Positions 266-41,719 of a stretch of DNA of 64,000 nucleotides are shown here, piece by piece. Position numbers and translations under genes: made by a program. The notes beneath the pieces are model-generated. The model did no database searches. It saw only the letters and a program-made list of their open reading frames with translations, and had not been told where the DNA came from. Each line of letters begins with the position of its first letter. Within the stretch, counting starts at the first letter, position 1. This stretch comes from Pecten maximus (taxonomy: Eukaryota): the NCBI RefSeq assembly GCF_902652985.1, contig NC_047021.1, forward strand, positions 16,678,001-16,742,000, read 5' to 3'.

Positions 266-335
266 CTGAATGGCACATGGAAACACTGAGCCACTGTATG
301 TAACACCAAGCTCGAAGTAGTAAGATCCTCTTCAT
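266..335 (-). CDS. First coding (signal peptide) exon of a further paralogue of the lectin-mucin-TM family; gene continues beyond the left edge
   Basis: ATG at 335 reads MKRILLLRAWCYIQWLSVSMCHS-G, then G|GTAAAT phase-1 donor at 266/265. Closely resembles exon 1 at 13091-13166 (MDWRILLRAWCGIQFLCGTVYLSQS-G); both ATGs are preceded by GACAAC. Confidence 0.7.
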
Positions 336-2032: not shown

Positions 2033-5000
2033 TCAACAAAATGTTTTCAACGCCACAAAGAGTCTCGGTAGGTCTAACAGGAAAACTCCGCCGAATGCCA
2101 CTGTCAGAAATCCTATGCCGAGGTATCCTACGTAGGCGGAGGTTGGACGAGGGTCGCTAGCACTGGTTCTCTTACGTATCGTCGACGATAAGTTCTCCTC
2201 GTTAACTTTGGTTTCCTTCTTCAGAATATCAATCTTTTTCTGTAGTTCCTCGTGGGTAATATTCACGACAGGGTTAACACAGCAATGACAGCATGGTGAG
2301 ATGCTGGAGGCAGTGGTTACGTCAGTGGTGACGCCAAAAGTTCTGTCAGTGTTGACGTCAGTATTCTGGTTTGTGGTGACGTCAGTAGTTCTTTTATTGG
2401 TGACTTCAATGTTCCGGTGAGTGTTGACATCGGTAGTCTGGTCAGGAATAGCTTCAGTTTCCAGGTTGGCGGTAGGATCAGCAGAGAGACCACCTGTGTT
2501 TTTTTTTGTAAAGCAAACAGAAATCAGTAATACTAATAATGCGAACGTATAGGAATAGGTAGAAGACTTAGTGGTAGCATGAGCAATTAATTAGACACTA
2601 CAGTTAATCATGTTGTTAAAGGCAGTTTGCCTAATTCGACTATCAAACTCGACAACAGTGATTTATATAAGGCAATAAAACTTGATACATCAACGGTGTG
2701 TAATCTTACATGGTTAGCTAAAGACTACTCTGTTTTGTATGAGTAAGCAAACATATGCATAAACAAAATTTATCAGAGTTAAGCTTTTTAGTGACGTGTG
2801 TATAATGAACGCTGACCTATATTTTACATAGCGGATGTCTACAATGAAGTAGAAGACGCTGAACCTTTCCGAATACCTGGTCCTTTTTTCTTGTTGTTGT
2901 CGAATATACATTGTCTCATTGAAAATTTATAGTGTTGGTTCGTATTTGCCATCGTTAAACAATTTTCAAAATATTGTTACAAGTCGTGTCTTGTATTTAA
3001 TGAAACATCTCTAATCGAGTGAAATAAATGCAACATTCAACAACCACTCTTTTTGCAACCCCTATTATAGTTTATATGTATATGTACCGGTTTGGTATGG
3101 CGTTGAACATAGTGCATAAGCCTCCGTTGAGCAAATACAATCATGGAATTTCCAGTTGTAGGTGAAGATTGTAATACATTCCCCATTGTCTGTGTTGGGC
3201 TGGCCGAAATCCCAAGGTATCCAGGATTGTACAATATCGGTTCCTTGCATCACAGTATCAGTCTGTGCCGACTTCTGGTATCCAACATAAAGGAAGTTCC
3301 AACTGGAAAGCAATCGCACCATGTTATAAAACAATCTTCCAATCTGTTAGTTTTATGGGATACCACTAATATATATGTATTCGTTGAACAGCAAAAATTC
3401 AACAATTCAATAACAGCACACTTTACTTATTAACATTACACAACACATTAACGAAACACGACATTCCTTGACATTAAACAACATAATAATGACACACTCC
3501 ACTCCTTAACATTCAACGACACAATAACGACATAGTTCACTTCTCACGGATAAACATAGTGAGGTAATACACACAACCTCACGGCACCCAGACAAACATA
3601 GTGACGTAATACACACAACCTCACGGTACCCAGACAAACATAGTGAGGTAATACACACAACCTCACGGCACCCAGACAAACATAGTGACGTAATACACAC
3701 AACCTCATGACACCCTGACAAACATAGTGAGGTAATACACACAACATCACGTCACCCAGACAAACAGTGACGTAATACACACAACCTCATGGCACCCAGA
3801 CAAGCATAGTGAGGTAAAACACACAACCTCACGGTACCCAGACAAACATAGTGAGGTAATACACACAACATCACGGTACCCAGACAAACATATTGACGTA
3901 ATACACACAACCTCACGGCACCCTGACAAACATAGTGAGGTAATACATACAATTTCACGGCAAACAGACAAGCATAGTGATGTAATAGGCACAACCTCAC
4001 GGCACCCAGACAAACATAGTGAGGTAATACACACAACATCACGACACCCAAACAAATATAGTGAGGTAATACACACAACTTCACGGCACCCAGACAAACA
4101 TAGTGAGGTAATACACAAAACTTCACGGTACCCAGACAAATATTTAAGCATTGAACTGCTTTCATTTGGAAGTTATGGGCTGATGAATGCCAACTTGACA
4201 AAGGCAATTTTAATGAAGCGCGCTAGTGCTTCATGTTGAATTTGCCTTTGTCCAGTTGACATTCATCAGCCCATAACTTCCAAATGAAAGCAGTTTAATG
4301 CTTATATTTACATTTGACGACTATCTTTAAAGACTTTATCCAGGGATTTTGCTCCTACTATGAATGAACAAATTATTATCGTCAAAGACGGAACAGCCTT
4401 TTCAAAAACAATCTTTCGTTATCGCCGACGTGACAATTATGACGTTACTATAATAATGACGTCATAATAAAGATTTGGAAGTTATGGACTCGTAACCTTC
4501 AAGCAAGCTTGGTAAGGTTATGCAGTGGGGCTGCAGTGTAAATGTAAATATAGTGTGGTAATACACACAACCTCACGTCACCCAAACAAATATAGTGACG
4601 TAATACACACAACATCACGGCACCCAGACAAACATAGTGAGGTAATACACACAACCTCACGGCACCCAGACAAACATAGTGACGTAATACACACAACATC
4701 ACGGTACCCTGACAAACATGGTGAGGTAAAACACACAACCTCACGGTACCCAGACAACCATAGTGACGTAATACACACAACTTCACGGCACCCAGACAAA
4801 CATAATGAGGTAATACACACAATTTCACGGCAAACAGACAAGCATAGTGATGTAATAGGCACAACCTCACGGCACCCTGACAAACATAGTGACGTAATAC
4901 ACACAACCTCACGGCACCCAGACAAACATAATGAGGTAATACACACAACCTCACGGCACCCTGACAAACATAGTTAGGTAATACACACAACATCACGACA

Positions 5001-8000
5001 CCCAAACAAATATAGTGAGGTAATACACACAACTTCACGGCACCCAGACAAACATAGTGAGGTAATACACACAAATTCACGGTACCCAGACAAACATAGT
5101 GACGTAATACACACAACCTCACGGCACCCTGACAAACATAGTGACGTAATACACACAACCTCACGGTACCCAGACAAACATAGTGAGGTAATACACACAA
5201 CCTCACGGCACCCAGACAAACATAGTGACGTAATACACACAACCTCATGACACCCTGACAAACATAGTGAGGTAATACACACAACATCACGTCACCCAGA
5301 CAAACATAGTGACGTAATATACACAACCTCATGGCACCCAGACAAGCATAGTGAGGTAAAACACACAACCTCACGGTACCCAGACAAACATAGTGAGGTA
5401 ATACACACAACCTCACGGTACCCAGACAAACATATTGACGTAATACACACAACCTCACGGCACCCTGACAAACATAGTGAGGTAATACACACAACTTCAT
5501 GGCACCCTGACAAACATAGTGAGGTAATACACACAATTTCACGGCACCCAGACAAGCATAGTGATGTAATACGCACAACCTCACGGCACCCAGACAAACA
5601 TAGTGAGGTAATACACACAACATCACGTCACCCAGACAAACATAGTGAGGTAATACACACAACCTCACGGCACCCTGACAAACATAGTGAGGTAATACAC
5701 ACAACCTCACGGCACCCAGGCAAACATAGTGACGTAATACACACAACCTCATGGCACCCAGACAAACATAGTGAGGTAATACACACAACCTCACGGTACC
5801 CAGACAAACATAGTGATGTAATACGCACAACCTCACGGTACCCAGACAAGCATAGTGAGGTAATACACACAACCTCACGGCACCCAGACAAACATAGTGA
5901 GGTAATACACACAACCTCACGGCACCCAGACAAACAGAGTGAGGTAATACACACAACCACATGGCACCCAGGTAAACATAGTGACGTAATACACACAACC
6001 TCACGGCATCCTGACAACCATAGTGACGTAATACACACAACTTCACGGCACCCAGACAAACATAATGAGGTAATACATACAATTTCACGGCAAACAGACA
6101 AGCATAGTGATGTAATAGGCACAACCTCACGGCACCCAGACAAACATAGTGAGGTAATACACACAACATCACGACACCCAAACAAATATAGTGAGGTAAT
6201 ACACACAACTTCACGGCACCCAGACAAACATAGTGAGGTAATACACAAAACTTCACGGTACCCAGACAAATATTTAAGCATTGAACTGCTTTCATTTGGA
6301 AGTTATGGGCTGATGAATGCCAACTTGACAAAGGCAATTTTAATGAAGCGCGCTAGTGCTTCATGTTGAATTTGCCTTTGTCCAGTTGACATTCATCAGC
6401 CCATAACTTCCAAATGAAAGCAGTTTAATGCTTATATTTACATTTGACGACTATCTTTAAAGACTTTATCCAGGGATTTTGCTCCTACTATGAATGAACA
6501 AATTATTATCGTCAAAGACGGAACAGCCTTTTCAAAAACCATCTTTCGTTATCGCCGACGTGACAATTATGACGTTACTATAATAATGACGTCATAATAA
6601 AGATTTGGAAGTTATGGACTCGTAACCTTCAAGCAAGCTTGGTAAGGTTATGCAGTGGGGCTGCAGTGTAAATGTAAATATAGTGTGGTAATACACACAA
6701 CCTCACGTCACCCAAACAAATATAGTGACGTAATACACACAACATCACGGCACCCAGACAAACATAGTGAGGTAATACACACAACCTCACGGCACCCAGA
6801 CAAACATAGTGACGTAATACACACAACATCACGGTACCCTGACAAACATGGTGAGGTAAAACACACAACCTCACGGTACCCAGACAACCATAGTGACGTA
6901 ATACACACAACTTCACGGCACCCAGACAAACATAATGAGGTAATACACACAATTTCACGGCAAACAGACAAGCATAGTGATGTAATAGGCACAACCTCAC
7001 GGCACCCTGACAAACATAGTGACGTAATACACACAACCTCACGGCACCCAGACAAACATAATGAGGTAATACACACAACCTCACGGCACCCTGACAAACA
7101 TAGTTAGGTAATACACACAACATCACGACACCCAAACAAATATAGTGAGGTAATACACACAACTTCACGGCACCCAGACAAACATAGTGAGGTAATACAC
7201 ACAAATTCACGGTACCCAGACAAACATAGTGACGTAATACACACAACCTCACGGCACCCTGACAAACATATTGACGTAATACACACAACCTCACGGCACC
7301 CTGACAAACATAGTTAGGTAATGCACACAACCTCACGGTACACATACAAACATAGCTAGGTAATGCACACAACCTCGCGGCACCTTGACAAACATAGTGA
7401 CGTAATACACACAACCTCATGGCACCCAGACAAACATAGTTAGGTAATGCACACAACCTCACGGTACACATACAAACATAGTTAGGTAATGCACATAACC
7501 TCGCGGCACCTTGACAAACATAGTGACGTAATACACACAACCTCACGGTACCCAGACAAACATAGTGAGGTAATACACACAACCTCACGGTACCCAGACA
7601 AACATAGTGACGTAATACACACAACCTCACGACACCCTGACAAACATGGTGAGGTAATACACACAACCTCACGGCACCCTGACAAACATAGTGAGGTAAT
7701 ACACACAACCTCACGGCACCCAGACAAACATAGTTAGGTAATACACACAACCTCACGGTACCCAGACAAACATAGTGAGGTAATAAACACAACCTCACGG
7801 TACCCTGACAAACATAGTGAGGTAATACACTCAACCTCACGACACCCAGACAAACATAGTGTGGTAATACACACAACCTCACGGCACCCAGACAAACATA
7901 GTTAGGTAATACACACAACCTCACGGCACCCAGGCAAACATAGTGAGGTAATACACACAACCTCCCGGTACCCAGACAAATATAGTGAGGTAATACACAC

Positions 8001-11000
8001 AACCTCACGGCACCCAGACAAATATAGTGAGGTAATACACACAACCTCACGGTACCCAGGCAAACATAGTGACGTAATACACACAACCTCACGACACCCT
8101 GACAAACATGGTGAGGTAATACACACAACCTCACGGCACCCTGACAAACATAGTGAGGTAATACACACAACCTCACGGCACCCTGACAAACATAGTGACG
8201 TAATACACACAACCTCACGGCACCCAGACAAACATAATGAGGTAATACACACAACCTCACGGCACCCTGACAAACATAGTTAGGTAATACACACAACATC
8301 ACGACACCCAAACAAATATAGTGAGGTAATACACACAACTTCACGGCACCCAGACAAACATAGTGAGGTAATACACACAAATTCACGGTACCCAGACAAA
8401 CATAGTGACGTAATACACACAACCTCACGGCACCCTGACAAACATATTGACGTAATACACACAACCTCACGGCACCCTGACAAACATAGTTAGGTAATGC
8501 ACACAACCTCACGGTACACATACAAACATAGCTAGGTAATGCACACAACCTCGCGGCACCTTGACAAACATAGTGACGTAATACACACAACCTCATGGCA
8601 CCCAGACAAACATAGTTAGGTAATGCACACAACCTCACGGTACACATACAAACATAGTTAGGTAATGCACATAACCTCGCGGCACCTTGACAAACATAGT
8701 GACGTAATACACACAACCTCACGGTACCCAGACAAACATAGTGAGGTAATACACACAACCTCACGGTACCCAGACAAACATAGTGACGTAATACACACAA
8801 CCTCACGACACCCTGACAAACATGGTGAGGTAATACACACAACCTCACGGCACCCTGACAAACATAGTGAGGTAATACACACAACCTCACGGCACCCAGA
8901 CAAACATAGTTAGGTAATACACACAACCTCACGGTACCCAGACAAACATAGTGAGGTAATAAACACAACCTCACGGTACCCTGACAAACATAGTGAGGTA
9001 ATACACTCAACCTCACGACACCCAGACAAACATAGTGTGGTAATACACACAACCTCACGGCACCCAGACAAACATAGTTAGGTAATACACACAACCTCAC
9101 GGCACCCAGGCAAACATAGTGAGGTAATACACACAACCTCCCGGTACCCAGACAAATATAGTGAGGTAATACACACAACCTCACGGCACCCAGACAAATA
9201 TAGTGAGGTAATACACACAACCTCACGGTACCCAGGCAAACATAGTGACGTAATACACACAACCTCACGACACCCTGACAAACATGGTGAGGTAATACAC
9301 ACAACCTCACGGCACCCTGACAAACATAGTGAGGTAATACACACAACCTCACGACACCCTGACAAACATGGTGAGGTAATACACACAACCTCACGACACC
9401 CAGACAAACATGGTGAGGTAATACACACAACCTCACGGCACCCTGACAAACATAGTGAGGTAATACACACAACCTCACGGCACCCAGACAAACATGGTGA
9501 GGTAATACACACAACCTCACGGTACCCAGGCAAACATGGTTAGGTAATACACACAACCTCACGGTACCCAGACCAACTTCACGACACCCACACAAACATA
9601 GTGAGGTAATACACACAACCTCACGGCACCCAGACAAACATAGTGAGGTAATACACACAACCTCACGGCACCCAGACAAACATAGTGACGTAATACACGC
9701 AACCTCACGGTACCCAGACAAACATAGTGAGGTAATACACACAACCTCACGGTCACCCAGACAAACATAGTGAGGTAATACACACAACCTCACGGCACCC
9801 AGACAAACATAGTGAGGTACACATGTAATACACACAACCTCACGGTACCCAGACAAACATAGTGACGTAATACACCCAACCTCACGGTACCCAGACAAAC
9901 ATGGTGAGGTAAAACACACAACCTCACGGTACCAAGACAAACATGGTGAGGTAATACACACAACATCACGGCACCCAGACAAACAGAGTGAGGTAATACA
10001 CACAACCACATGGCACCCAGGTAAACATAGTGACGTAATACACACAACCTCACGGCATCTTGACAACCATAGTGACGTAATACACACAACTTCACGGCAC
10101 CCAGACAAACATAATGAGGTAATACATACAATTTCACGGCAAACAGACAAGCATAGTGATGTAATAGGCACAACCTCACGGTACCCAGACAAACATAGTG
10201 AGGTAATACACACAACCTCACGGCACCCTGACAAACATAGTGTGGTAATACACACAACATCACGACACCCAAACAAATATAGTGAGGTAATACACACAAC
10301 TTCACGGCACCCAGACAAACATAGTGAGGTAATACACAAAACTTCACGGTACCCAGACAAATATTTAAGCATTGAACTTTTTTCATTTGGAAGTGATGGG
10401 CTGATGAATGCCAACTTGACAAAGGCAATTTTAATGAAGCGCGCTAGTGCTTCATGTTGAATTTGCCTTTGTCCAGTTGACATTCATCAGCCCATAACTT
10501 CCAAATGAAAGCAGTTTAATGCTTATATTTACATTTGACGACTATCTTTAAAGACTTTATCCAGGGATTTTGCTCCTACTATGAATGAACAAATTATTAT
10601 CGTCAAAGACGGAACAGCCTTTTCAAAAACCATCTTTCGTTATCGCCGACGTGACAATTATGACGTTACTATAATAATGACGTCATAATAAAGATTTGGA
10701 AGTTATGGACTCGTAACCTTCAAGCAAGCTTGGTAAGGTTATGCAGTGGGGCTGCAGTGTAAATGTAAATATAGTGTGGTAATACACACAACCTCACGTC
10801 ACCCAAACAAATATAGTGACGTAATACACACAACATCACGGCACCCTGACAAACATAGTGAGGTAAAACACACAACCTCACGGTACCCAGACAACCATAG
10901 TGACGTAATACACACAACTTCACGGCACCCAGACAAACATAATGAGGTAATACACACAATTTCACGGCAAACAGACAAGCATAGTGATGTAATAGGCACA

Positions 11001-13166
11001 ACCTCACGGCACACAGACAAACATAGTGAGGTAATACACACAACCTCACGGCACCCTGACAAACATAGTGTGGTAATACACACAACATCACGACACCCAG
11101 GCAAACATAGTGAGGTAATACACACAACCTCACGGCACCCAGACAAACATAGTGAGGTAAAACACACAACCTCACGGTACCCAGACAACCATAGTGAGGT
11201 AATACACACAACCTCACGGCATCCAGACAAACATAGTGAGGTAATACACACAACCTCACGGCACCCAGACAAAGATAGTGAGGTAATACACAGAACCTCA
11301 CAACACCCAAACAAATATAGTGAGGTAATACACACAACTTCACGGCACCCAGACAAACATAGTGAGGTAATACACACAAATTCACGGTACCCAGACAAAC
11401 ATAGTGACGTAATACACACAACCTCACGGCACCCTGACAAACATATTGACGTAATACACACAACCTCACGGCACCCTGACAAACATAGTTAGGTAATGCA
11501 CACAACCTCACGGTACACATACAAACATAGCTAGGTAATGCACACAACCTCGCGGCACCTTGACAAACATAGTGACGTAATACACACAACCTCACGGCAC
11601 CCAGACAAACATAGTGACGTAATACACACAACCTCACGGCACCCAGACAAACATAGTTAGGTAATGCACACAACCTCACGGTACACATACAAACATAGTT
11701 AGGTAATGCACACAACCTCGCGGCACCCTGACAAACATAGTGACGTAATACACACTACCTCACGGCATCCTGACAAACATGGTGAGGTAAGGTATCATTT
11801 GATTTTTTTCACAAATCGTTTGATTGTGTTGTCAACCTCGTGCATTTCGCAAAGGGTATATCCAAATTCCAACAATTAAGTGAACTGAGGATGAACTTTC
11901 AAACATAAATAACCATTCATGCTTATATAGCAAAATAATCACAAATACGTCTATGTTAGGACATTTTAAACTTAAATCTAACCGAATTCTACGTATGTTT
12001 GGGTTCTTAAGGATATATTACAAATGTAAGCACTAGTGTTTAAAGTGTTATACAGAATGTAAACCTGCGAACCAATAATATTGTACGATAACAGGTGAAA
12101 TCATAGCTTAGTACCACTGTTAGTAGGGACAAAACAATTTCAATACACTCTCGAACTTAACATGTAAATATTTTATATCGGTTACTTTGATTAAAAGATA
12201 TGAGTGACCTATCATGTCAGGGTTTTTTTTGTTTAATTATTATTTCAACATGAGGTACTTGTATCATAAATCTAAACTTGAACCTCTATATTCCGTAAAT
12301 AGCGGGGAATTGTTGTAATTACACCAGGTAAATACTTAATGAACCAATTGATATTATGAGATTAAACGAATATGTATCATCACATAAAACTTACTATCCA
12401 GGAAGTTGTTGTCTTATGAATGCTGAGATGTTCGAAATGGCCTCTTCCTTTGGGAAATACGCAAGTGTACCATCACTTTCCTGGCACGCGTCTTCACTCG
12501 ATGAGGCGTCTTGCCGTCTATCTATAACCCAGTAGCAGATTTGGGTTTCGCTAACGTCGGTTAAACATTCACACAGGGGAATAACCGCTATAAAATAATT
12601 AGAAATACAACATGATGACACATTTAAAACTGTTAAATTTCAGTCCACTATTCATTTGTCTATTTTAAAACTGGTTTCATAATTTTTCTTTATTTTACTG
12701 AATTAATTCATAGTTGTGTAAAAAAAGTCACACTTTCCAGTTTGGGATCACTTGGCATTTGTCTTGTAAGCTTGATCGTTTTCCACATGAACGTTTGTCA
12801 AATTCATACTAGTCCATTTTGTCATTTTAGGTATTGTTTTCAATTTGGCTGGAATCTATCATTTACTGGTAGTTTTAATCCACTGTCAGAAAAAAGAGTA
12901 AAATTAATAGGATTGTCATGAAATGTCGTTTTGAAGATGGCTATACAAATGATAAACGCACACTTAGAACGGTGAACCTTCTGTGAAAATAATTGGTAAT
13001 CAATCTGATATATTGTTCCATTTGTTTTACTAGAAATGAATTATTGTAATAGACAGACTATATATACAATATAAAACAAGGTGCGTTTACCTGACTGAGA
13101 CAGATACACGGTACCACAGAGGAATTGTATACCACACCATGCCCGAAGCAGTATCCTCCAGTCCAT
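2033..13166 (-). CDS. Gene A: type I membrane C-type lectin with short Thr-rich stalk and conserved juxtamembrane module (~314 aa, 4 exons)
   Basis: Exons 13166-13091 (signal peptide), 12587-12395 (CTLD N-half, ICYW..AC..DGTLA), 3302-3088 (CTLD C-half, LYVGY, WDFGQPN, ECI..FHDCIC..ALC), 2493-2033 (stalk, CCHCC, helix, LSSTIRKRTSASDPRP, TM). All introns GT-AG, phases 1,2,1; 945 nt open frame. Confidence 0.85.
4142..4551. mobile_element. ~408-bp fold-back/MITE-like insert, copy 1
   Basis: Interrupts the 42-bp unit at AAATAT. First ~165 bp is an imperfect palindrome centred on GCGCTAGTGC. The remainder is bounded by TATATTTACATTT...AAATGTAAATATA. Confidence 0.7.
6272..6681. mobile_element. ~408-bp fold-back insert, copy 2
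   Basis: Near-identical to copy 1 at offset 2130, with the same flanking repeat variants. Confidence 0.7.
10363..10772. mobile_element. ~408-bp fold-back insert, copy 3
   Basis: Near-identical to copy 1 at offset 6221, with a few substitutions in the left arm. Confidence 0.7.
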
Positions 13167-17479: not shown

Positions 17480-18190
17480 ACAGACTACCTGGTAGTGTAT
17501 TGGCGCAGTAAACCTGATAGTCTAGTGCCGCAGTATACCTTGTAGTCTAGTGCCGCAGTATACCTGATAGTCTAGTGCCGCAGTATTCTTGGTAGTCTAG
17601 TGCCGCTGTATTCTTGGTAGTCTGGTAGCGTAGTATCCCTGGTAGTCTAGTGCCGCAGTATACCTTGTAGTCTAGTGCCTCAGTACACCTGGTAGTCTAG
17701 TGCCGCAGTACACCTGGTAGTCTAGTGCCGCAGTATTCACGGTAGTCTAGTGCCGCAGTATTCATGTTAGTCTAGGGCCGCAGTATTCACGGTAGTCTAG
17801 TACCGCAGTATTCACGGTAGTCTGGTAGCGGAGTATACCTGATAGTCTAATGGCGCAGTATTCATGGTAGTCTAGTGCCGCAGTACACCTGGTAGTCTAG
17901 TACCGCAGTATACCTGGTAGTCTAGTGCCGCAGTATTCTTGGTCGTCTAGTGCCGCATTATACCTGGCAGTCTAGTGCCGCAGTTTTCTTGGTAGTCTGG
18001 TAGCGAAGTATACCTGGTAGTCTAGTGCCGCTGTATACCTGGTAGTCTAGTGCCGCAGTATACCTGATCGTCTTGTGGCGCAGTATACCTGGTAGTCTAA
18101 TGGCGCAGTATTCATGGTCGTCTAGTGTAGCCGTATATCTGATAGTCTGGTGGCATAGTTATGCTGGTAGTCTAGAGGGGCAGAATACCT
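17480..18190. repeat. 25-bp minisatellite
   Basis: Unit TACCTGGTAGTCTAGTGCCGCAGTA, ~27 units, degenerate at both ends. Confidence 0.92.
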
Positions 18191-19056
18191 GTCTTTGTCT
18201 TTGGCAACCAGTCTTCGATTACCTGATTGTAGGGGTAAAAAAGGGAGCTCATCTGTTCAATCACGAACGTTTTCTCAGAATTCAAGTGTCGTCGTACATA
18301 AAAACTACTGCAGAAAATATGTGATATTTATAATACATTTTGTGTCGCAATTACTATAAAATGGATCAAGTTTAAAGTGTTATTTTTCGAAAGAGAAAAA
18401 TATCGGAATTCTTTATAGCGAGTCGTTTTTTTTTACTGCGATCAAACACCAATAAACCATCAGATAAATCACCATCCGGTTACTATAAAATGAATTTTGT
18501 GCTGAACGATACAGCATTTTACATTTGTATAAGCATTGTCCAAACAATCTCGTCAAACATTCTATCAATTGTATAATATTATAGATATTGACGCCTCGCA
18601 ATCAATATCAACAATCTAAACCCGAATGACATCGATTATGAGCCAAAAAAAAAAAAAACGTATCAGTGGAATATGCTCCTGATAATAAAATATTAAAATA
18701 CTGAAGATGAAAACATCCCAAGGAGAGAGAAAACATACAAAAAAATGTACAACATTAATATTTGAATTGTGCTTAACGATTCGAATAACCTTTTGTTTGC
18801 ATTGTCTTTTGAGATCCTACTCCCTTTATGCGAAAACTCCATTTGAATATTTGCAAACACAAATTGGAACCATATTTAAATTTGCACAATTAATCTATTT
18901 ATTGCTCTAGTGACATCATAATCGTTCCCGTCGACAGCAAGAATTATGATAAAAACTTGCGATTGTCTAACTCCTCGGCGCTCTTTACAGAAGAGTAGAG
19001 AATATCAAAATAAACAACTATTAAACCAGGAATTACAATAAAACCTTGGAATCAAT

Positions 19057-19976
19057 TCATAAGAAAAATGTTTTCAACATCATGATCATTCTTGGCAGGT
19101 CGAGTAGAAGAATTCCTCCAAATGTCGTGGCCAGAAGCGCTATTCCAACGTATCCAACATAAGCAGAGGATGGGCGTGGGTCACTGGCACTTGTCCTCGC
19201 CCTAATCGTCGATGACAAATTCTCCTCGTCAACCTTGGTTTCTTTCTTCAGAGTATCCAATTTCAACTGTAGCTCCTCGGTGATGTTTACGACAGAGTAA
19301 AAAATTAGTCCATTTGCATCACAATCACAAGAACAGGTGTTGCTCTGAGTAGATACAAGCACGGCCGTAGTTGCTTCACCCGTAACGTTATCGCTTGACA
19401 CTTCTGAACCTGTACATGGATAAAAGAAAAATATGATTAATAAGTCTGTACATACCCTGATCCTTAACATCTAAGGATCATTAATGACATTACACGTTTA
19501 GATGAGATATAGAGATCTGTAGTCTGTGACAATATATGTCTAAAATTGCCTCCATCACGCTTTAACTTCCTGAATATGGAGTCTGAGATCCTTTATCTAA
19601 GGTTCGGTCAAGAATAATAGACACAAGTATTTCGCTGCTTTTTTTTTTTTTTTTTCTTTTTAATTTGTGTCTTCTGAAAGCAATGTTTTAGGCTGATGGA
19701 GATAGAATGGAATAGTATTTGTCTCTATGCGATGGAGGGTATGCAACTTAAATGACATGAATAAGAAAGCATCATCTCGAATCTACAAATTGTCTCGCTG
19801 AAAAAGTAAACATTGAAACTGTGTTGAATGGTTACCATGGAAAAGTCTTATCAAATTTATTTTTGTTATTTACCAAAGATTTCCGTCTATTTAAGGATAA
19901 AAATAATCTTACTTGTATGATGGCACATAGCAATACTCAGAATCTGCATCCCACAAAACAGCGTTTTCCACGTCAT
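19057..19976 (-). CDS. Gene B: lectin-less family member (signal peptide, short stalk, juxtamembrane module, TM; ~138 aa, 2 coding exons)
   Basis: Exon 19976-19913 MTWKTLFCGMQILSIAMCHHT with A|GTAAGA phase-1 donor (in-frame upstream ATG at 20015, acceptor TTATTTTAG at 20031). Exon 19409-19057 after CATGTACAG: SEVSSDNVT..CSCDC..EELQLKLDTLKKETKVDEENLSSTIRARTSASDPRPSS-TM. The join is in frame. Confidence 0.75.
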
Positions 19977-21139
19977 GATAAGCGCATGAATTATGTAATA
20001 TTCCAATATTTCCATGCAGTATATGTCAACCTAAAATAACCTGCCGTTAGAAGCTCACATCTAAACATTTATAATATGCTGCCTTGTCCGAGTAATCTAA
20101 TTCATAATATATACTTCTAGTTAATCTATATACTTATGTTGCTACAATGTTTGGCGTATTGTTCTGAGCCATAACCAATGTTTACTCAAGCTCCATCAGC
20201 TTTTAGCACTTCAAGGTTCCATTAAACTAATCTACTAAAACTATTCGCGATATCAGTTCTCTATTTACATATGACCTACCGATAGTGGGCAAATTATGTA
20301 CAAGCAGAGAACAAATAAATCACTTGGTTGTCAGCTTATTGAATACTGAAATTAAGAAAGAAGTCTGTAAAATATATTTCACGAGGCCTTCACAACATTC
20401 CATTCATGAAAATGCATAAAAGTAAGCAAAACAATCAAACGTCATTGTCGGCGATGTGAATAATTTTATTTTACAACAGAGTATGTGATTATACTTAGTG
20501 AGAATATCACAAATAGTAGCACTCTATTCATGAACATTCACCAAAGCTGATTGTTCACACAACAACACAAGACCACAATAACAACGGATGGCATACCAAT
20601 GGCATAACAATGTATATTCACGAATCGTATCTGACAACAATGTATTCGCATCCGACAACAAAATTCCTATAAGACAAGTTGTTTCTAACAGATAACACTT
20701 TATTCGTATCCGACACTAATTTATAATAGTATCAGAAATTTATGTTTTTATAGCAATGATTATTGCACCTGATTATATACAAATGGGTGCCTGAAGGCAT
20801 GTTGATAATTTACGTCTGGCAGTAATTAGCTCAATTAAATATATGAATGATCATTTGAGGAACAAATAGATATAAACAATGCGTACTTGTTCACATGCTT
20901 CAAATCAAGAAAGAAAATGGATACGTATTGTTAGTTTTCCATTTATAAATTAGAACATCGCTGCTTACCTACCATTCAGTATTCAATGGATTGTTCCCAT
21001 CAATACGATTTTCGTGGCAGCTATTGACTACTGACGGAGAAATTAACAACACAAATATTCGAGAGAGGAAAGTTGGCGAAGACAATGAGAAAGTGTTACG
21101 GTCTACATCAGTATCTCAATTAGAAATGTTATATTGCTT

Positions 21140-22575: not shown

Positions 22576-25500
22576 ATGCTATGGAACTTTCTGACCAGTA
22601 TATTATTACTGGCGAATTACCCAGGTAAGATTATGGTCTTTGTATAGATTTCAACATCTTTTGTGTTTGTTGCAGTTGTTCTTATACTATATTACAGAGT
22701 AGAAAAAATATTTTCAAATGAATGTCAAAATAGCGTATAAATCACGGACATACTGAATTAGCAAAATTTTTAATCGTTGACAAATATGTCGTTATTGTGT
22801 ATAATTCGTATCCCTGTACGTATATACATTACAGTAAAGGTATTCATATCATCTAACAGACGATTTGTCACTATGAACAGTGTACCACTCGACCATTTCT
22901 CTACCAATGAAATGTTCGATAACAGAACGTGGATGTGGCGCAATGGTATCAGCTGCGGGTATTACTGGCTAGGCGAATAGGTGTCGAAGGTCGTGAGTTC
23001 GAGGCTGGGTCAGGGCACATGTCATAAAATTGTCTTCCTTCGTCAGTTGTGACTGTCAGTTGTGTCAATATGTGTCTTGGTTCGTAAACCAGATATATCT
23101 TTTATTTTCTAGCATACTGTATTTTCTCTTCAGGGGGATATTCACAATGTCAAAGCGGTGCCGAGTTGTACTACCTTTTCCCACACGGAGATATTTGTTA
23201 CTGGATACTGAGTTTATATTCGCCGAGAAATGCGGCAGACAGTGAAACTGGCTGTAGGAGTGAGAACGGAGAGCTAGCTTACATCCCCAACATATATGCT
23301 CTCATCACAGTGATGCAACTATTATTGAATAATAATGCGAACGTCAGGTTAGTGACACTTAGTCCATTTAAAAACTGTTGTACAATATATTTAAGGAGGA
23401 ACATCTGTCTGATGACATGTTGTATGATTTCCAGTCTTTATTATATCAATGCCAAGTGAAGCTTTCAACGTATCAATTACGCTATGGGGTAGGAAGCAAG
23501 TGCATGATATCTTTATTTAGACTTTTGTTTTAGTATTTCCTTACTTTGATATATGATTTGTTTCCTGATTTTAAACTGATGATTATATTGTGACAAAAAG
23601 GTAAGTATTCCATTTTTGTCAAAAATGATATAAAATATATAAAAACAGATTTCTAGATTCTTCATATGTTAGATAAAGACATTGAGAACTAGGCGTGTAG
23701 AAAAATAATTTGTACGCATGACAGATGACGTCTAGTGTGGCCGATAAAAACCGATCATATTTTTTTCAGAATATAAGTACTGTGTTGTCAGAGATTCGTT
23801 ACCAATTTAAACAAAGCTTTATTAAGGTAAACTTGTTAATATTAACAACTAATATACCGCCAAAGCATGTGACACATCTTTTTTAACATGGCTGTGATCG
23901 GAATTTTTTATAATTTTTTATAATGTTGAACGCAAGAACACAATTAGTTGATAGTGAATACACGTGTAGATTGAATAAATTTCTTTTCCATTTCCGCATT
24001 TTCAGCGGCTGGTATGCTTACTTGGGATATAGTCGGGTAACCTCTTCCACTACATTATTGGAAATACAAAACAGTGGCGTTTACCAAACGTGGATACCAT
24101 GGGACCAAGTGATGGGCCAACCATTACAAAGCAGCTTGGGATGTATAGCACTTCATGGCACCTCGGGGCTTTGGCATGACATGCACTGTGCTAATAACAT
24201 AAGGGCAATATGCTCAACGCCTTATCACACAGGTATGCCAGTAGTTTTTAAATAAGCTACATTTCAAATAAAAATGACATACATTTCAATCAGATTTTTT
24301 AAAATTAGTTATGTCATTGTGAAAAACTTAAACACACTGTCTTAGCTAGTAATTTCATTGTGAAACACTTTAACATACTGTCTTAACTAGTAATGCCATT
24401 GCGAAACACTTGAACACATTGTCGTAACAAGTTATATAATTGTGGAACACTTGGATACAATGTCTTAACTAGGTATGTCATTGTGAAACACTTGAACATA
24501 CTGTCTTAATTTTTATGTGACTTGGAGGTGAAACAATTTATTTAGCAGCCATCAACAAAACAATGAAGGGTAACAGGTAAAATTATTTGAAAGGACTATA
24601 AGCATTCCAGTTACGACAAGATACCAATTTTTAATCGATTCTATTAGTATATCATCTTGTTATTCTGTGATATTGTCGTATTGGATTCCATGTTCATTAT
24701 TATTACTACAGATACAACACAGGCCCCAACGATCACCTCTACAACGACACGGGTCCCAACAACAACCACTACAACCACCCAAGAACCGACAACCACTACA
24801 ACAACAACTCAGGAACCCATAACAACAACTACTACAACAACTCAGGAACCCACAACAACAACCACTACAACAACTCAGGAACCCACAACAACAACCACTA
24901 CAACAACTCAGGAACCCACAACAACAACCACTACAACAACTCAGGAACCCACAGCAACAACCACTACAACAACTCAGGAACCCACAACAACAACCACTAC
25001 AACAACTCAGGAACCCACAACAACCACTACAACAACTCAGGAACCCACAACAACCACTACAACAACTCAGGAATCCACAACTACTACATCAACAACTCAG
25101 GAACCGACAACCACTACAACAACAACTCGGGAACCGACGACCACTACAACAACTCAGGAACCCACAACCACTACAACTCAACCACCAACAACAACGGCAA
25201 CGACCAAGGAACCGAAAACAACAACGACGACGACTACTGATGTACCGACAACAACAACGACAACAACCGATGAACCCACCACAACTACAACTACAACGCA
25301 GGATCTAACAACCAGTAGAATAACCATTGAAGAATTATCTACATCGAGCCACACGGATTGCGTGTGCCCATGCGATCATAGTCCTCATACAGAGTTTTTC
25401 TCAACCGTTAATATGACTGAGGAGCTACAGGCGAAATTGGACAGTTTAAAGGAGGAAACAAAAGTTGATGAGGAGACTTTATCGTCAACTATCAGAAAGA

Positions 25501-25637
25501 GGACCAGTGCCCACGATCCCCGTCCGTCCTCGACCTATGTTGGATACTTGGGCATAGCACTTCTCTCCTTTATATTTGGTGGCCTGATCCTTGCAGATCT
25601 GTTAAGTGTGATCATCACCTTAAAACTCATTTTATAA
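22576..25637 (+). CDS. Gene C: type I membrane C-type lectin-mucin (~471 aa, 4 exons)
   Basis: Exons 22576-22624 (MLWNFLTSILLLANYP-G), 23134-23347 (ICYW..GC..NGELA), 24006-24232 (AYLGY, WDQVMGQPL, GCIAL..LWHDMHC..AIC), 24712-25637 (QEPT7-8 mucin, CVCPC, LSSTIRKRTSAHDPRPSS, TM). GT-AG introns, phases 1,2,1; 1416 nt open. Confidence 0.88.
22800..23050 (+). repeat. Dispersed repeat with tRNA-like A/B boxes (inverted copy at ~57960-58220)
   Basis: GTGGATGTGGCGCAATGGTAT..GTTCGA..CAGGGCAC..TTGTCTTC aligns with the reverse complement of 57960-58220. Confidence 0.65.
24310..24512. repeat. Degenerate ~41-42-bp tandem repeat in intron 3 of gene C
   Basis: About 5 copies of TCATTGTGAAACACTTGAACATACTGTCTTAACTAG. 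Confidence 0.75.
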
Positions 25638-34391: not shown

Positions 34392-37300
34392 ATGGACACA
34401 GATTCATTTACCATACTTATTGCATTATACCTACAGGGAGGCACTTTTGGAAGTCACATAGGTATTTTTTCTTAAAGTAGTCTTATTTTTCAGTTTGTTT
34501 AACCGAGATGTTTAATTATTGTTTTAAATATATATTTTCACATTGATGCGGAGACAACTATGATCAGCCATTGATTCTATTACATTTCCAATTCTGCAGA
34601 TGTTATACTATGATGATATAGGTGTTTACTGTTAAAAACGGTCTGGTTTTACCGAGAAGTACTCCTATTATATATTCACAGGTATCGATTACCTCGCTGT
34701 ATTATCGATTTGATATTACTGTTTCATGTTAGACCTTTTTCAATATATATGAAATAATCGTATTTGAAATTATTTTCAATGCAAATGTCCCACTAGTATT
34801 TCCGGTTTTTCGTTATGTTCAATGCAAATATACCATTTGCATTTTCGGTTTGGCGTTATGTGAATGCAAATGTTGCATTAGTATTTCCGGTTCGGCGTTA
34901 TGTATATTGGAAATGTCACAGTAGTATTTCCGGTTTGGCTTCGTTCACTGTAAATGTAATTTTCTATTTTCCAGTTTGGTGTCATTCACTTTGTAAATAT
35001 ACATCAGGTTCGGTGGTTCCATGCTATTGTACAATATTTGTTGTCTATGTGTTTGCTACTAGAACCAAACATATTGCTGATTTGTATGTTTGTCATTCCT
35101 TCAGGATGCCCAAGCGAAGGAACAGTATTGACAGATAGCATATACAACGAGACATGCTTCTGGATAGTGCAGACTAGACAACAAATCCAAGTTGGGGAAG
35201 ATAGGTGTGCTACAAATGGAGGACACTTGGCAGTTGTTTCCAGTGAATCCATTGCGATCATGCTTTACTCCTTCATAACGAACACAGGTGTTTCGTATGT
35301 ATTTATTGATGACTATCTTCACAATGTACATTGTATTCAGAATCATAGTGATTTTGTCACAACAAAGATTTCTTTAATTTTAGCGAGGCTCAATTTGGCG
35401 ATTTGGCGGCGCCGTATATAGATCGCAAAAATTTAATCCGCCAAATTTTAACACCGCCAATTAAGATGAAGCGAAAATTTCATCTTCATATTTGATAACT
35501 CCTCTAATGCTTCGATACTCCGAGATTAACTATTAGTGCGTATTGTTGGTTGTTGCCTGACAACTTTAGACAATCTAGGACGATTTTATTTTAATTTAGG
35601 TATGATGTCTTCCTATCCAATTAGTCATGTACATATAATTCAATATCTTTCCTGTAGTAGTCAATGATTTACCTGCATTCCATATATTCGTATAGACTCG
35701 CATGAGGTTTTTTTCCGGCCCGCTTGACGACAATTTAAAAATATGATTTTTTTTAAAAGAAAGCCTCTACAATTAAATTAATATTAGCAGCTTATCTATC
35801 CGTATATGTATCATACAATAGACGACCGGCAATATTATACAGTTTATTAAACACGCTTCATTATGCCATTTATTCTCTTTGTCTGTTGCATGTACATGTA
35901 GCTTATTTGTACGTATTCGTTAAAACGCTTGGTATTACGATCGCGAAAATGTTCCGCTCTCCCCACCCGTTCATTCTAACGACTTGTCCGACAAGGAGTC
36001 TCTCCATGAGTTTGGTATTGATGGCTTTATTGCCGTAGAGATCAAAGCAACCTGTTGGTGATAAGAAAAAAGTCGAGATATCTTTTAAAGACGCATACTC
36101 CCAAATAACCTAAACTTTTACATACACATGTACTAATGACAATCCAAGATGCTCATTCACGCTCTCCTAACATTAAAATGACCATTAGACTAGACACTTG
36201 ACCGGGGGAATCCTGGCGACTTCAGTGTATGAAAATACTTTGCGGTATTTATTTTTTATCGCGAGATTTGCCATGAAGCCTAGAACGAGGCTACAAGAAC
36301 GTTCACTACACATAAACTGCACACTAATCAATATAAACAAACATACAACTAAATACCTGATTTTGAAATATAGCAATATGCATACAACAAAACATCGATA
36401 AAATTGAGATCGGTGAAGTGGACACAATGTTCGAGGAATACGGTAAAACCTAACCAGCAATCCAATAGACGTCCGGAAAAATCGGAATTCGAATCTATTT
36501 CTATTTCCTCTCCTGATGAGTTCCAACGAATCGATTCTTTTCCCAGGGAAATCCTGAGGTTTTGCCGATTCTAGTCCTTTTTAAGTTTTTTTTTTTTTGG
36601 CAGAATCTGTCTGCGTTTCTAGCTGGCCCACGCTTTCGGCGTTTTGTCATTTTGTGTTTTGTTGACCGTTTCATTGAGGGACTAATTTGCATTGAAACCT
36701 GGTCCACGGACCCAGTTATTATTTTATGGAATTTTCCGTATAGTTTCATAAAGACACATTTCCTTCCAGTTTTTGATTCGCGATAACTTGTTAGGTATAT
36801 ATATGAAGTCTGAAAACTGTAAAGAGGTCAAAATGTAATCATTTATATATATTTCATTTGGGAAAGAAAAAAAACGTGTGCCACACAGCATGCATTTCCG
36901 TTAGTTTAGTTTATTTCATTGCCAATATACAGCAAAAGGATTGAGCACAAGTTATATGAACATTACAGACGCCCGTTGCTAATAATATAATTAAACATAT
37001 GTATACATCATAAGATGGTTAAATAGTGATAATCATGTACAATACTAGTTTAATTGGATAAGAAAATTAAAGGGGATAGATAATGATATATCCATGAACC
37101 GAAGGAAAAATAACAAGGACATAGTCGTCAAGATCCCCCGCCCATGCAAAAATTGTATTACATGAAATTAAAGTGGGCAACATTCATAAAAACATGAAAA
37201 ACATGACATTTAGCATTTAGAATCATTACATTTATATTCATGTTCAGGCAGCAAGTTCCTGTGAAAGTAATTAACATAATTAGTAACAATTAAATAAGAT

Positions 37301-40300
37301 ATTATACTGTACAGTGAACTATCAAAATGGGCTAATCATGCTTGTATTCTCCCTTTCTTCCTACTAGATAGATCTGACTTAATATGGTTGGAAGTGTATC
37401 GACAGATGACTGTTTTGACATGAACCATACAATTAAGTTTTTCATTGAGGCTCAGATGGTTGATACAGTGCATTCCTCTTTATATCATGTTGTATTTGTC
37501 AGACAAAAACATGATATTAACAGAAATGTGAGCAATCAGCTAATCAGGTCACAGCAGCCTCATTAAATATGCGCGGAATATGCCGATGATCGAACTTGAA
37601 CGAGGGGTTCAGGTTATAAGTGTACCAAGCAAGTTTCATCAAAATTCAATCATTCCTTCAAAAGATATCGTCCGAAAAGCAATCAGCCAATCAGGTCACA
37701 GCAGCCTCATTAAATATGCGCGGAATATGCCGATGATCGAACTTGAGTGAAGGGTTCAGGTTATAAGTGTACCAAGCAAGTTTCATCAAAAGCCAATCAT
37801 TCCTTCAAAAGATATCGTCCGGAAAGCGAATCCAGACGGACGGAAGGACCCCATTTGTATATCGTACTTCGTTGGGCGGGGGATAATAAATAATATTTGT
37901 TACTATTTAGGTAGGTTAGGCAGCGGCATATTGACAATAAACATCAATAACAATCTTGAAAACAAATCCCTAATGGGTGCACGACAGTGAAAAACATTCA
38001 GTCTGCGATTGTTTAGTCTATGAATTAAAAAATAATAAGGACATTAAAGTTTGGAAAAACTTATTATTACCATAGGTTTGTCATATGCTTGTCCCTGGCT
38101 AAATAAAGAAGTAAGGTCGTTTCCCGTTTACCTTGACCTAGGTTTAGGCCACGATACAGGTAATGAATTACGTGACACCGGTGATTCCCACAGCACCAAA
38201 ATACACCGCCATGGTCCATTGGCGCGCTGTGTGATATGAGCGGATTATGTAGTCAATCAATAACATATGAAATAAAGTTTATTGACATACCAGATAGGAA
38301 TTTTACACTATCATGTTTAATGTACATTTAACGTTAAAAATATTTTTTCAAATACGACCAAGAAAAAATGAATGGTGTTAAGAAAAACAAAAACAAATAT
38401 GAAAACATACATCTTGGTAGGTGATTCGAACTCCGAACCTACGGTTGCCTAAGCGTTGCGGTGCGCCTTTGGTTCTACCATATAAATCAAAATATTTTAT
38501 CAACTACGCTTTTTCGCTTTTTCGATGTTAGGATTTTAATTGTCTTTTACTACATAGAATAAAATTATGCATTGTAAAAATTGATCTTCCGATGCACTCT
38601 ATGTCAAATAAAGATTTGAATGCAGGAAAAAAACCCACGAACGTTGCAAATAGCTCGACTCATACCATTATTGTAGGAACATCACACGCGACATGTGGCT
38701 GTTTGATACGTTTTTTGTTTCTTTCTCGTTAATTAAGCTCGTGTCATTGTATCTTATGTATCTAACTTGAGTATTATTAACGCCGTATCCAACAACCACT
38801 TGTTTCCGTGCAACCTCTATTTCATCTGCTATTAAGTAGTTCTTCGGGAAGTGATAGCTCATTCGGTAGAACTTCGGACAGCAGCTTTAGGGGAATTCGA
38901 GGTTCAATCCCTACCCGAAGAGATTTATGTTTCTCAGAGAGCTAAAAACACGAACAGTTCTGTGATGTAGTGGCTGTTTCATGCGGCAAGATATTTCACC
39001 CCAAATGATCTTGTTGACATGCAACGGGCCTTCCGTATTGTGCCCAAGGAGATAGTCAACAGCTGTTACAAGGACACTCCGCCTCCAAATTACACTGGCT
39101 CTTTACTGAGCAATAAACGCAACAAAATACGCAAACTTATAAGTATTCAACGAATACAACCAAGTTTCATAATGCATAAAAAAAGTAAAAAATACGATAA
39201 GTATAAGAGTGAATTAACATCGTAATGATATGCTAATTAAAAGGCTACATTGTTTTATCGTATATTTTTAAACTTATAAATACTGTCTTGTGAATACGTT
39301 ACACATTTAAATTATGCTGATATATATTCTAATATTTAACCTAGTGAATTGTTAAAGTTGAAAATTTTAATGATGTAGGCATTAATTAAATACAAAGCCT
39401 ATTTTTTGTTTAATCAGATCAAACTGGCTATATATGGGATACAATGAATACAATAACAAAGTCACAGTGAGACGCACAGGGGAACAACAGTTGTGGACTT
39501 ATTGGGACAATAGAGAACCAAACGACAGAGTCTCTCCTGAACCATGTATAGCTATCAAGGTGGCCAACGGCAAATGGCATGATATTCCATGCACGTGGAA
39601 TGTATGTGCGTTATGCTCGAAACATCTCCATACAGGTTTGTCTTACTTGTTAACAAATCTTATGCATCTAAATCTAGCAGGTTTTCTTACCTTTTAAAAA
39701 AAATAATATGCATTCATTACTAGATCAATGTTAATGCACACTTGTATCAATTGAAGGCTCATTTTCCAAACATTGTTTCGATTGATTTACAGTAGGAATA
39801 AATAAAAAAAACAGTCTAAAGTTGTTAAATGTTTATAGATCTGTTTATGTAGGCTGTGATTTCTGGTCTTGGTTTTCTATGGTAAACATGACGGTAGCAC
39901 TAATTCACCACTGCACTATTCTGTTGCAGTTCTGTAAAATTTAGATTATATCATTTAAGATGACTGACGCTTTGCATATCCTAACCATTTTTTTAAAATA
40001 TGTTTGGTAGTAGTATTTAACGTAGAGTGTTCTAACTAGACGATTCAAACAAACAATTGATCTTAGAAATATATATCTATATGTCATCGGTAAAATAGTC
40101 AATGTATTTTCTATCTATTGACGTAAATAAGTTTTGGAATTTAAGTCAAAGTGCTTTTGATCCGGCTTAATGACAAAAACTTTTTTTTTTTAAGTGATTA
40201 TCAAACCGAACGATTAGATTCATTGTTGAACAAAAGAAATAACATTCTCTTCCTACATATTATTTAGTTGACTTTGTAGAATTTCAGCAAGCCATGCATG

Positions 40301-41719
40301 TTCATTTAAAGATGTAATTAATTATTGTGTCAGTTAAACATAAAGAAAAGCACAAATTGTAAATATTTTTTAAATACTGTTCCCATAGATACAACGACTG
40401 AGGAACTAACAACTGAAAAAACAACTCAGAAGCCTTATAATACAACCCCTCCCATTCCGTCAGGAATACCAACCACTTCACCTCAGGAACCGACGACCAA
40501 TAAAACAACCCAGGCACCGACAATTACTACAACAATTTGGGAACCGACATCCATCAATGCAACAACACAGGCACATACAACAATCACTGTAACTCAGGAA
40601 CCCTTAACATCAACCACTAAAACAACTCAGGAACCCACAACAACCACAACACCAACTCATGAACAAATAACCACAACCATTACAACAACTCAGGAACCCA
40701 CAACAACAGCCACTACAACAACTCAGGAACCCACAACAACAACCACTACAACAACTCAGGAACCCATAACAACAACCACTACAACAACTCAGGAACCCAC
40801 AACAACCACTACAACAACTCAGGAACCCACAACAACAACCACTACAACAACTCAGGAACCCATAACAACAACCACTACAACAACTCAGGAACCCACAACA
40901 ACCACTACAACAACTCAGGAACCCACAACAACAACCACTACAACAACTCAGGAACCCACAACAACCGCTACAACAACTCAGGAACCCATAACAACAACCA
41001 CTACAACAACTCAGGAACCCATAACAACAACCACTACAACAACTCAGGAACCCACAACAACCACTACAACAACTAAGGAACCCACAACAACCACTACAAC
41101 AACTCAGGAACCCACAGCAACAACCACTACCTTAACTCATGAACCAATAACCACAACCACTACAACAACTCAGGAACCCATAACAACAACCACTACAACA
41201 ATCACTACTACTCAGGAATCCATAACCACTTCGACAAGCACGACAACATCAAAGGAACTAACAACAGCCAGTACAACAATCCAGGAATTGACAACCATCG
41301 TTGCAGCATCTCAAGAAATAACAACTTCAAAAAAGCAGAAGCCATCAACCACTACTTCAACAATTCGGGAACTAGCAATAACTACAACAGCTGGGGCTCA
41401 AACAGCATCCACTACAACAACTATTGAGAACATAACAACACCAATCCTCATCGCCTGCTTTTGTCCGTGTAGACAGAGTAACTACACGGTCAGTGAGCTT
41501 GAAGCCAAACTAGAGAATTTAAAGGAGCAGACAAGAATTGACGAAGAAACGTTATCGTCTACGATAAGAAAGAGGACTTGTGCCGACGATCCTCGTCCCT
41601 CTGTGGCCTATGTAGGATACATTGGAATAGGGTTTCTAACTTTCATATCCTTTGGAATTTTACTGCCGGACATTTTTCAAATGATACAAACACTAGAACG
41701 ACTTCGTGAAACAAATTAA
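34392..41719 (+). CDS. Gene D: type I membrane C-type lectin-mucin with EPN/WHD site and long stalk (~602 aa, 4 exons)
   Basis: Exons 34392-34461 (MDTDSFTILIALYLQGGTFGSHI-G), 35105-35294 (TCFW..RC..GGHLA), 39418-39635 (WLYMGY, YWDNREPND, PCIAI..KWHDIPC..ALC), 40389-41719 (mucin, CFCPC, LSSTIRKRTCADDPRPS, TM). Phases 1,2,1; 1809 nt open. Confidence 0.88.
34778..34995. repeat. Degenerate ~43-44-bp tandem repeat in intron 1 of gene D
   Basis: About 5 copies of AATGCAAATGT..TAGTATTTCCGGTTTGGCGTTATG. Confidence 0.7.
36400..36865 (+). repeat. Dispersed repeat (second copy at ~48140-48610)
   Basis: Shared CAGCAATCCAATA..GACGTCCGG.AAAATCGGAAT, TTTTTGGCAGAATC.GTCTGCGTTT and CAGTTATTATTT.ATGG(G)AATT motifs in the same orientation. 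Confidence 0.75.
37111..37890 (+). mobile_element. Non-autonomous Helentron-associated (pearl/HINE-like) element
   Basis: Starts AACAAGG..ATCCCCCGCCC and ends GGGCGGGGGATAATAA (inverted pair). Two tandem 147-bp cores (37531, 37678) followed by (GACG/GGAC)n. Confidence 0.65.

What the first reader, a model, noticed from the sequence alone, without database searches (positions are those of the whole stretch)
19057..20030. Head-less paralogue: signal peptide spliced straight to the anchor exon
Seen: a family-type signal exon (MTWKTLFCGMQILSIAMCHHT, compare ..WCYIQWLSVSMCHS) with a phase-1 donor lies only 503 bp from the phase-1 anchor exon. I see no lectin exons between them and the frame is intact. 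The two CTLD exons form a symmetric 1-1 cassette, so they can be lost or gained without frameshift. Inference: a lectin-less decoy, adaptor or hetero-oligomer subunit that keeps the constant module, arranged head-to-head with gene C. It is also the only copy with RAR instead of RKR.
Basis: partly seen in the sequence, partly recalled or inferred. Interest (0 to 1): 0.7.

Follow-up and report, generated by a model that had tools for sequence, protein, structure and literature searches.

The report
Scallop membrane protein missing lectin head
One gene in a scallop cluster of six surface-lectin genes is spliced without the sugar-binding exons, leaving only an unnamed membrane-anchoring module found across molluscs, and it likely works as a non-binding partner of its lectin-bearing neighbours, which is untested.

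Summary
Transcript-like contigs from 4 of 6 runs laid (all four from one study) splice the signal exon (19913) directly to the anchor exon (19409) across a 503-nt GT-AG intron. RefSeq has the model as LOC117331064, 151 aa.
The other five cluster genes carry both C-type lectin exons. B's signal exon is homologous to that of two of them and its intron holds no lectin remnant, so B lost the cassette.
The retained part is a Pfam-less module: CxCxC, heptad helix, a basic Ser/Cys-A-x-D-x-R motif, then a transmembrane helix. It has at least 86 matches in this genome and 667 sequence clusters, and is joined to lectin, WSC, PAN, Sushi, Ig and IgGFc-binding heads.
B keeps the conserved residues, with dN/dS about 0.19. 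Head-less models recur independently in gastropods and an oyster.
Not supported: a signalling adaptor (14-residue tail, no tyrosine), special meaning of RAR, the 5' UTR exon. No head-less orthologue was found in other scallops, so a recent relic is not excluded. The more interesting object is the module itself.

The parts
19913..20078 (-). Gene B exon 1: 5' UTR plus signal-peptide-like coding part (ATG at 20015 or 19976), phase-1 donor
   Evidence: RefSeq model P0001
19410..19912 (-). Single 503-nt phase-1 GT-AG intron standing where paralogues have three introns and two lectin exons
   Evidence: joint in 4 runs; no lectin remnant
19057..19409 (-). Gene B anchor exon, coding part: 24-residue Ser/Thr-rich stub plus the constant module; N-glycosylation sequons at N42, N76, N98
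19321..19335 (-). CxCxC motif (C60, C62, C64)
   Evidence: Cys in 91, 86 and 97% of aligned relatives
19237..19278 (-). Amphipathic helix with 4-3-4 hydrophobic spacing (L81, L85, L88, T92; L92 in 86% of relatives), coiled-coil-like
   Evidence: AlphaFold helix at exon residues 44-57; column counts
19168..19215 (-). Conserved juxtamembrane motif S100..R104 A R T S108 A x D111 x R113 x S115; position 108 is only Ser or Cys
   Evidence: 160 Ser and 21 Cys of 181 distinct modules
19093..19164 (-). Predicted transmembrane helix with G120, G123 and an invariant D138 at its inner end, followed by a short tail
   Evidence: hydropathy, model, conservation
18600..19056 (-). Gene B 3' UTR (at least this far)
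   Evidence: contigs reach 18648-18659, and past 18600 in X3
22576..25637 (+). Gene C: signal exon 22576-22624, lectin exons 23134-23347 and 24006-24232, Thr-rich stalk plus anchor exon 24712-25637; 471 aa
   Evidence: Pfam Lectin_C E 0.00047, just under the curated cut-off
2033..13166 (-). Gene A: lectin-bearing paralogue of the type closest to B
266..335 (-). Signal exon of gene Z1, whose lectin and anchor exons lie left of the window; best match to B's signal exon
35104..41719 (+). Gene D: lectin exons and long Thr-rich stalk plus anchor; signal exon not located

Best explanation
Gene B is a spliced, frame-intact scallop gene that lacks the two lectin exons its five cluster neighbours carry, and it likely encodes a small single-pass membrane glycoprotein that would pair with those neighbours through its cysteines and heptad helix as a subunit that cannot bind sugar. 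Shown: the splice, the open frame, descent of both exons from the Z1/A-type lectin gene, retention of the family's conserved residues, and gene C junctions in three of the same runs. Inferred: loss by one frame-preserving deletion of the phase-1 cassette; signal cleavage and type I topology; oligomerisation of the module; mixed assembly that lowers or tunes lectin valency.
For: Junction in 4 of 6 runs laid. Five of six cluster genes carry both lectin exons. B sits among lectin-bearing scallop genes in two trees (97/93; 92/90). Signal exon homology. B keeps C60, C62, C64, N76, S100, R104, S108, A109, D111, R113, S115, G120, G123, D138. dS to Z1 and A is about 1.3 and dN about 0.2; branch dN/dS 0.19 against a background of 0.16. 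An odd number of cysteines (three in 113 of 148 modules long enough to count) and a heptad helix suit inter-chain bonding. Signal-plus-module models without a head exist in two abalones, Gigantopelta, Physella and Saccostrea, and do not form one clade with B (p-AU 1e-57). The abalone and Gigantopelta forms group together (98/83), suggesting long retention.
Against: No head-less B orthologue among other scallops' proteins, and no second bivalve genome was available, so the age of the loss is unknown; the low dN/dS could predate it. Rejection of dN/dS = 1 on B's branch is marginal (p 0.08, 0.07, 0.04 on three topologies, 86 codons, my own codon model). All spliced evidence comes from one study. 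Head-less models in other species were not checked against RNA and some may be truncated predictions. There is no protein-level evidence.
Confidence: 0.45

Rival explanations
1. Recently decapitated relic: B was an ordinary lectin gene under selection, lost its cassette lately, and is still transcribed but drifting.
For: No head-less orthologue found in Mizuhopecten, Argopecten or Ylistrum proteins; neutrality not firmly rejected; B differs from all five neighbours at K105A.
Against: No lectin or paralogue-intron remnant in the 503-nt intron; the same head-less splice in four samples with no coding differences listed; conserved residues kept; old head-less forms elsewhere.
Confidence: 0.25
2. 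The module is a working unit of its own, a sorting or self-cleaving signal or a ligand for a shared partner, and B functions independently of the lectin paralogues.
For: The same module ends proteins with at least seven unrelated head types. Position 108 is Ser or Cys in 181 of 181 modules, never Ala, Gly or Thr, although a search seeded with Ser would have favoured Ala or Thr over Cys. D111, R113, G120 and D138 are near invariant.
Against: No structural or sequence relative with known chemistry. Ser/Cys could reflect tight packing or an inter-chain disulfide. No processing data.
Confidence: 0.22
3. Signalling adaptor of the DAP12/FcR-gamma kind (family recalled) that carries signals for the lectin receptors.
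For: Tiny ectodomain with cysteines, one transmembrane helix, an acidic residue near the membrane.
Against: The tail is 14 residues with no tyrosine. The Asp lies at the helix end and is present in all 118 aligned relatives, headed or not.
Confidence: 0.03
4. Assembly collapse or a private deletion allele hides lectin exons.
For: The window is rich in tandem repeats; two runs from other studies gave no spliced contig.
Against: Four runs splice exactly this intron, and X5 pieces match intron sequence with no differences.
Confidence: 0.05

Closest known systems
Bivalve C-type-lectin-domain proteins with signal peptide and transmembrane helix (survey PMC10140915, passages read); neighbours such as P0004 'macrophage mannose receptor 1-like'
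   Same: Same cluster, homologous signal exon and anchor exon (60-70% identity). The paper notes domain gain and loss among bivalve CTL proteins.
   Different: B has no lectin domain and almost no stalk. The passages I read do not describe the anchor module or head-less forms.
Unnamed mollusc C-terminal anchor module (no Pfam, no PDB relative)
   Same: B is a typical member and close to a minimal one.
   Different: Most long members carry a head domain or a long mucin-like stalk. B-like head-less forms arose separately in gastropods and an oyster.
Collectins (recalled)
   Same: Cysteine cluster plus coiled-coil helix as a likely oligomerising unit beneath C-type lectin heads.
   Different: No collagen region, membrane anchored, order of parts differs, B has no lectin.
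Prokaryotic C-terminal sorting signals such as LPXTG, PEP-CTERM, GlyGly-CTERM, and self-cleaving SEA/GAIN modules (all recalled)
   Same: A conserved motif, a transmembrane helix and a short, often basic tail, shared by many unrelated ectodomains in one genome; a Ser/Cys-only position.
   Different: No sequence homology found; no processing enzyme or cleavage shown.
Biomphalaria clusters of single-pass receptor genes (PMC13712769, passages read)
   Same: Tandem cluster of single-pass mollusc surface proteins with small tails and structural turnover.
   Different: Different head domains as described there; I did not test whether they carry this module.

Membership tests
C-type lectin domain proteins (Pfam PF00059) | A CTLD | tested here: not met
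   No Pfam hit for B's anchor exon; no remnant in the intron; spliced contigs contain none
Scallop C7 lectin-anchor cluster | Homologous phase-1 signal exon and anchor exon | tested here: met
   0 of 5000 shuffles reach the Z1 score; trees
Unnamed mollusc anchor-module family | CxCxC, heptad helix, S..R...[SC]A.D.R.S motif, GxxG helix ending in Asp | tested here: met
Unnamed mollusc anchor-module family | Oligomerisation through the cysteines and helix (proposed here) | not testable with these tools
   Inferred from sequence pattern only; needs non-reducing gels or cross-linking
Collectins | Collagen region and C-terminal lectin domain | tested here: not met
   Neither is in the 151-aa sequence
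ITAM adaptors (DAP12, FcR-gamma) | Cytoplasmic tyrosine motif | tested here: not met
   Tail has no tyrosine
ITAM adaptors (DAP12, FcR-gamma) | Acidic residue in mid-membrane, specific to the adaptor | tested here: not met
   D138 is at the helix end and in all 118 relatives
Proprotein-convertase-shed ectodomains | Conserved dibasic or R-x-x-R site | tested here: not met
   Dibasic in 102 of 181 modules; B lacks it
C-terminal sorting or self-cleaving modules | Motif + TM helix + short tail on many unrelated proteins | tested here: met
   (median tail 20 aa)
C-terminal sorting or self-cleaving modules | Demonstrated cleavage or dedicated enzyme | not testable with these tools
   No data
Pseudogene | Disabling mutations or neutral evolution | tested here: inconclusive
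   No stop or frameshift; dN/dS 0.19, neutrality rejected only marginally; date of loss unknown

The most novel reading that the evidence does not exclude
Molluscs use an undescribed universal C-terminal module as a sorting or self-processing signal: a Ser/Cys nucleophile in the S/C-A-x-D-x-R motif would cleave or covalently link dozens of different ectodomains per genome at the membrane, and gene B is a natural minimal form of it that exposes the mechanism.
Probability: 0.15. Interest if true: 0.85.

Novelty: new variant of a known kind. Interest (0 to 1): 0.45.

Why it matters
Loss of a symmetric exon cassette is an ordinary route to a new paralogue, and the gene is already annotated as uncharacterised. 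What matters is what B isolates: a module present at least 86 times in this genome and across bivalves and gastropods, with no Pfam family, no solved relative and no description found in my searches. Head-less versions arising more than once suggest that the module does something by itself. B is a ready-made 138-151 residue reagent for finding out what, which would bear on how a large share of mollusc surface lectins, WSC, Sushi and Ig proteins are assembled, displayed or shed.

Tried and rejected
Complex prediction with two copies of the module: no verdict (the alignment was not used), not counted either way. PDB sequence search with the 119-sequence profile: 0 hits at E 1. Foldseek against PDB: 0 matches; the model is mostly loop and helix, pTM 0.38. 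ESM Atlas: nearest clusters are unnamed mollusc proteins, no named family for the module. Pfam on 119 members: no shared family for the module. Run search listed no holder on record as RNA; runs X5 and X6 gave no spliced contig, which says nothing about silence. The matches near 21032-21066, 21301 and 21540 are repeat fragments, not a UTR exon. Mizuhopecten P0003 was considered as a headed B orthologue; it groups weakly with Z1/A instead, so this is unresolved. A hydrophobicity filter for head-less models passed 15 of 201 proteins: five look like intron read-through, four are near-identical signal-plus-stalk forms, and Physella P0150 was picked by eye and did not pass. The gene C comparison used a wrong frame and is disregarded. 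A GPI signal was considered and dropped, since position 110 is variable and many tails are long and charged. Literature: seven searches, listings only except passages of PMC10140915 and PMC13712769; none described the module or LOC117331064; subscription journals and supplements were not seen. Earlier scan findings: nothing relevant.

Full report
The sequence. On the minus strand an exon ending at 19913 encodes MTWKTLFCGMQILSIAMCHHT plus one base and is followed by GTAAG. An AG at 19411-19410 precedes an exon that stays open to a stop at 19057. An in-frame ATG at 20015 gives a 151-residue form identical to RefSeq XP_033745551.1, LOC117331064 of Pecten maximus.

Transcription. Contigs of X1, X2 and X4 and of X1, X3 and X4 skip exactly 503 bases with canonical ends and cover about 18650-19407 and 19911-20049/20078. 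That is 4 of 6 distinct runs laid. All four are from one study and the tool only guesses that they are RNA, although a canonical intron skip is what RNA would give. X5 gave two unspliced pieces matching the genome and X6 nothing on the gene. Listed differences fall only in the 3' UTR. X1, X2 and X4 also hold gene C junctions. No joint to the proposed UTR donor near 20970 appeared.

The cluster. The anchor exon has six close copies on C7. Z2, Z1, A and B lie on the minus strand, C and D on the plus strand. All but B have both lectin exons. In C these are 214 and 227 nt, phases 1-2 and 2-1, so the pair can be removed in frame. B's signal peptide matches Z1's (0 of 5000 shuffles) and A's (9 of 5000). 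Its anchor is closest to Z1 and A (dS about 1.3, dN about 0.2). The intron shows no convincing lectin remnant and no similarity to paralogue introns. B nests among lectin-bearing scallop genes, so loss is the simplest reading. The exact sister gene is unresolved.

Selection. B keeps the strongly conserved columns of a 119-sequence alignment. The one exception, T92 for Leu, is shared by the whole scallop cluster. A codon model on 86 codons gave dN/dS 0.19 for B against 0.16 elsewhere; neutrality was rejected only marginally (p 0.08, 0.07, 0.04). Because the date of the loss is unknown, this does not prove selection on the head-less form. Two searches covering short proteins found no head-less orthologue in other scallops; their sensitivity is limited and no other bivalve genome was available.

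The module. It has 86 matches at E 0.001 among 150 scored of 224 candidates in this genome and 667 representatives at 50% identity. Every relative whose species I saw named is a mollusc. It has no Pfam family, no PDB relative and no named Atlas cluster. Of 82 longer relatives scanned, 25 carry Lectin_C, 6 IgGFc-binding, 5 WSC, 3 Sushi, 3 Ig, 2 PAN and 1 Methyltransf_FA (some carry several); 41 have no hit. Its parts are CxCxC, an N-x-T sequon, a helix with 4-3-4 hydrophobic spacing, a short basic helix, S/C-A-x-D-x-R-x-S, a GxxG transmembrane helix ending in an invariant Asp, and a tail of median 20 residues. Position 108 is Ser in 160 and Cys in 21 of 181 distinct modules. RKR is not a family rule: 20 of 118, with RAR in 3, and a dibasic pair in 102 of 181.

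Other head-less forms. Models with a signal-like start followed directly by the module occur in Haliotis cracherodii and H. rufescens (one 90% cluster), Gigantopelta aegis, Physella acuta and Saccostrea cucullata. The abalone and Gigantopelta proteins group at 98/83 and are 43% identical. Holding all six head-less rows together is rejected (p-AU 1e-57, 97 columns, 37 rows chosen by me from about 200). I did not verify their exon junctions.

How it most likely works. Shown: a spliced, intact gene with the constant module and no head. Inferred: a type I membrane glycoprotein whose three cysteines and heptad helix join chains, by analogy with hinge and neck regions known from memory. If paralogues assemble through this near-identical module, B would enter the same complexes and lower the number of sugar-binding heads. 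I give this 0.45, a recent relic 0.25, an independent function of the module 0.22, an artefact 0.05 and a signalling adaptor 0.03.

Comparison and novelty. B is not a C-type lectin, collectin or ITAM adaptor by the features tested. It is a member of an unnamed mollusc anchor-module family. PMC10140915 (passages) reports domain gain and loss and many uncharacterised architectures among bivalve lectins. PMC13712769 (passages) describes clusters of single-pass receptor genes in snails. Neither set of passages mentions this module, and seven searches (listings only otherwise) found no description; supplements and subscription journals were not seen. The gene is a new variant of a known kind of event. 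The module is the part worth following, and its Ser/Cys-only position leaves open a sorting or self-cleaving role (probability about 0.15).

Noticed in passing
window 19189-19191 (S108) and relatives: One position of the module is Ser or Cys in 181 of 181 sequences, which could mean a nucleophile or a dimer-axis position.
   Followed up: partly
window 48994-55639: Retrotransposon with long open ORFs, Pfam RVT_1 (E 1e-20) and inverted terminal repeats 48994-49152/55455-55611 (96%); layout recalls DIRS-type elements.
   Followed up: partly
window 3536-11790: About 8 kb array of a 42-bp minisatellite inside the intron between gene A's two lectin exons; the database model P0008 of gene A starts only at the second lectin exon.
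   Followed up: no
window 28458-29031: Frameshifted mariner-type transposase fragments (Pfam Transposase_1, E 2.5e-16).
   Followed up: partly
window 24705-25324 and 40390-41440: The Thr-rich stalk repeats of genes C and D are 75-85% alike in DNA while their anchors are saturated at silent sites, which hints at exchange or concerted evolution of the stalks.
   Followed up: no
window 30450-33775, 17435-18192, 41688-42595: Further tandem repeat arrays between cluster genes.
   Followed up: no
L005 8416-9177 and L005/L006 anchor; L007 4765-4995: A further lectin-plus-anchor gene lies 2.6 Mb away on C7; the C16 anchor has no lectin exon detected within the 15 kb fetched upstream of it.
   Followed up: partly
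P0012: A Saccostrea echinata model holds the module twice, the first copy without its membrane helix; probably two merged genes, but unverified.
   Followed up: no
P0085, P0095, P0101: Oyster-type members carry a small cysteine-rich head with no Pfam match in front of the module.
   Followed up: no
window 19987-19973: A short out-of-frame upstream ORF (four codons) lies between B's two in-frame ATGs.
   Followed up: no
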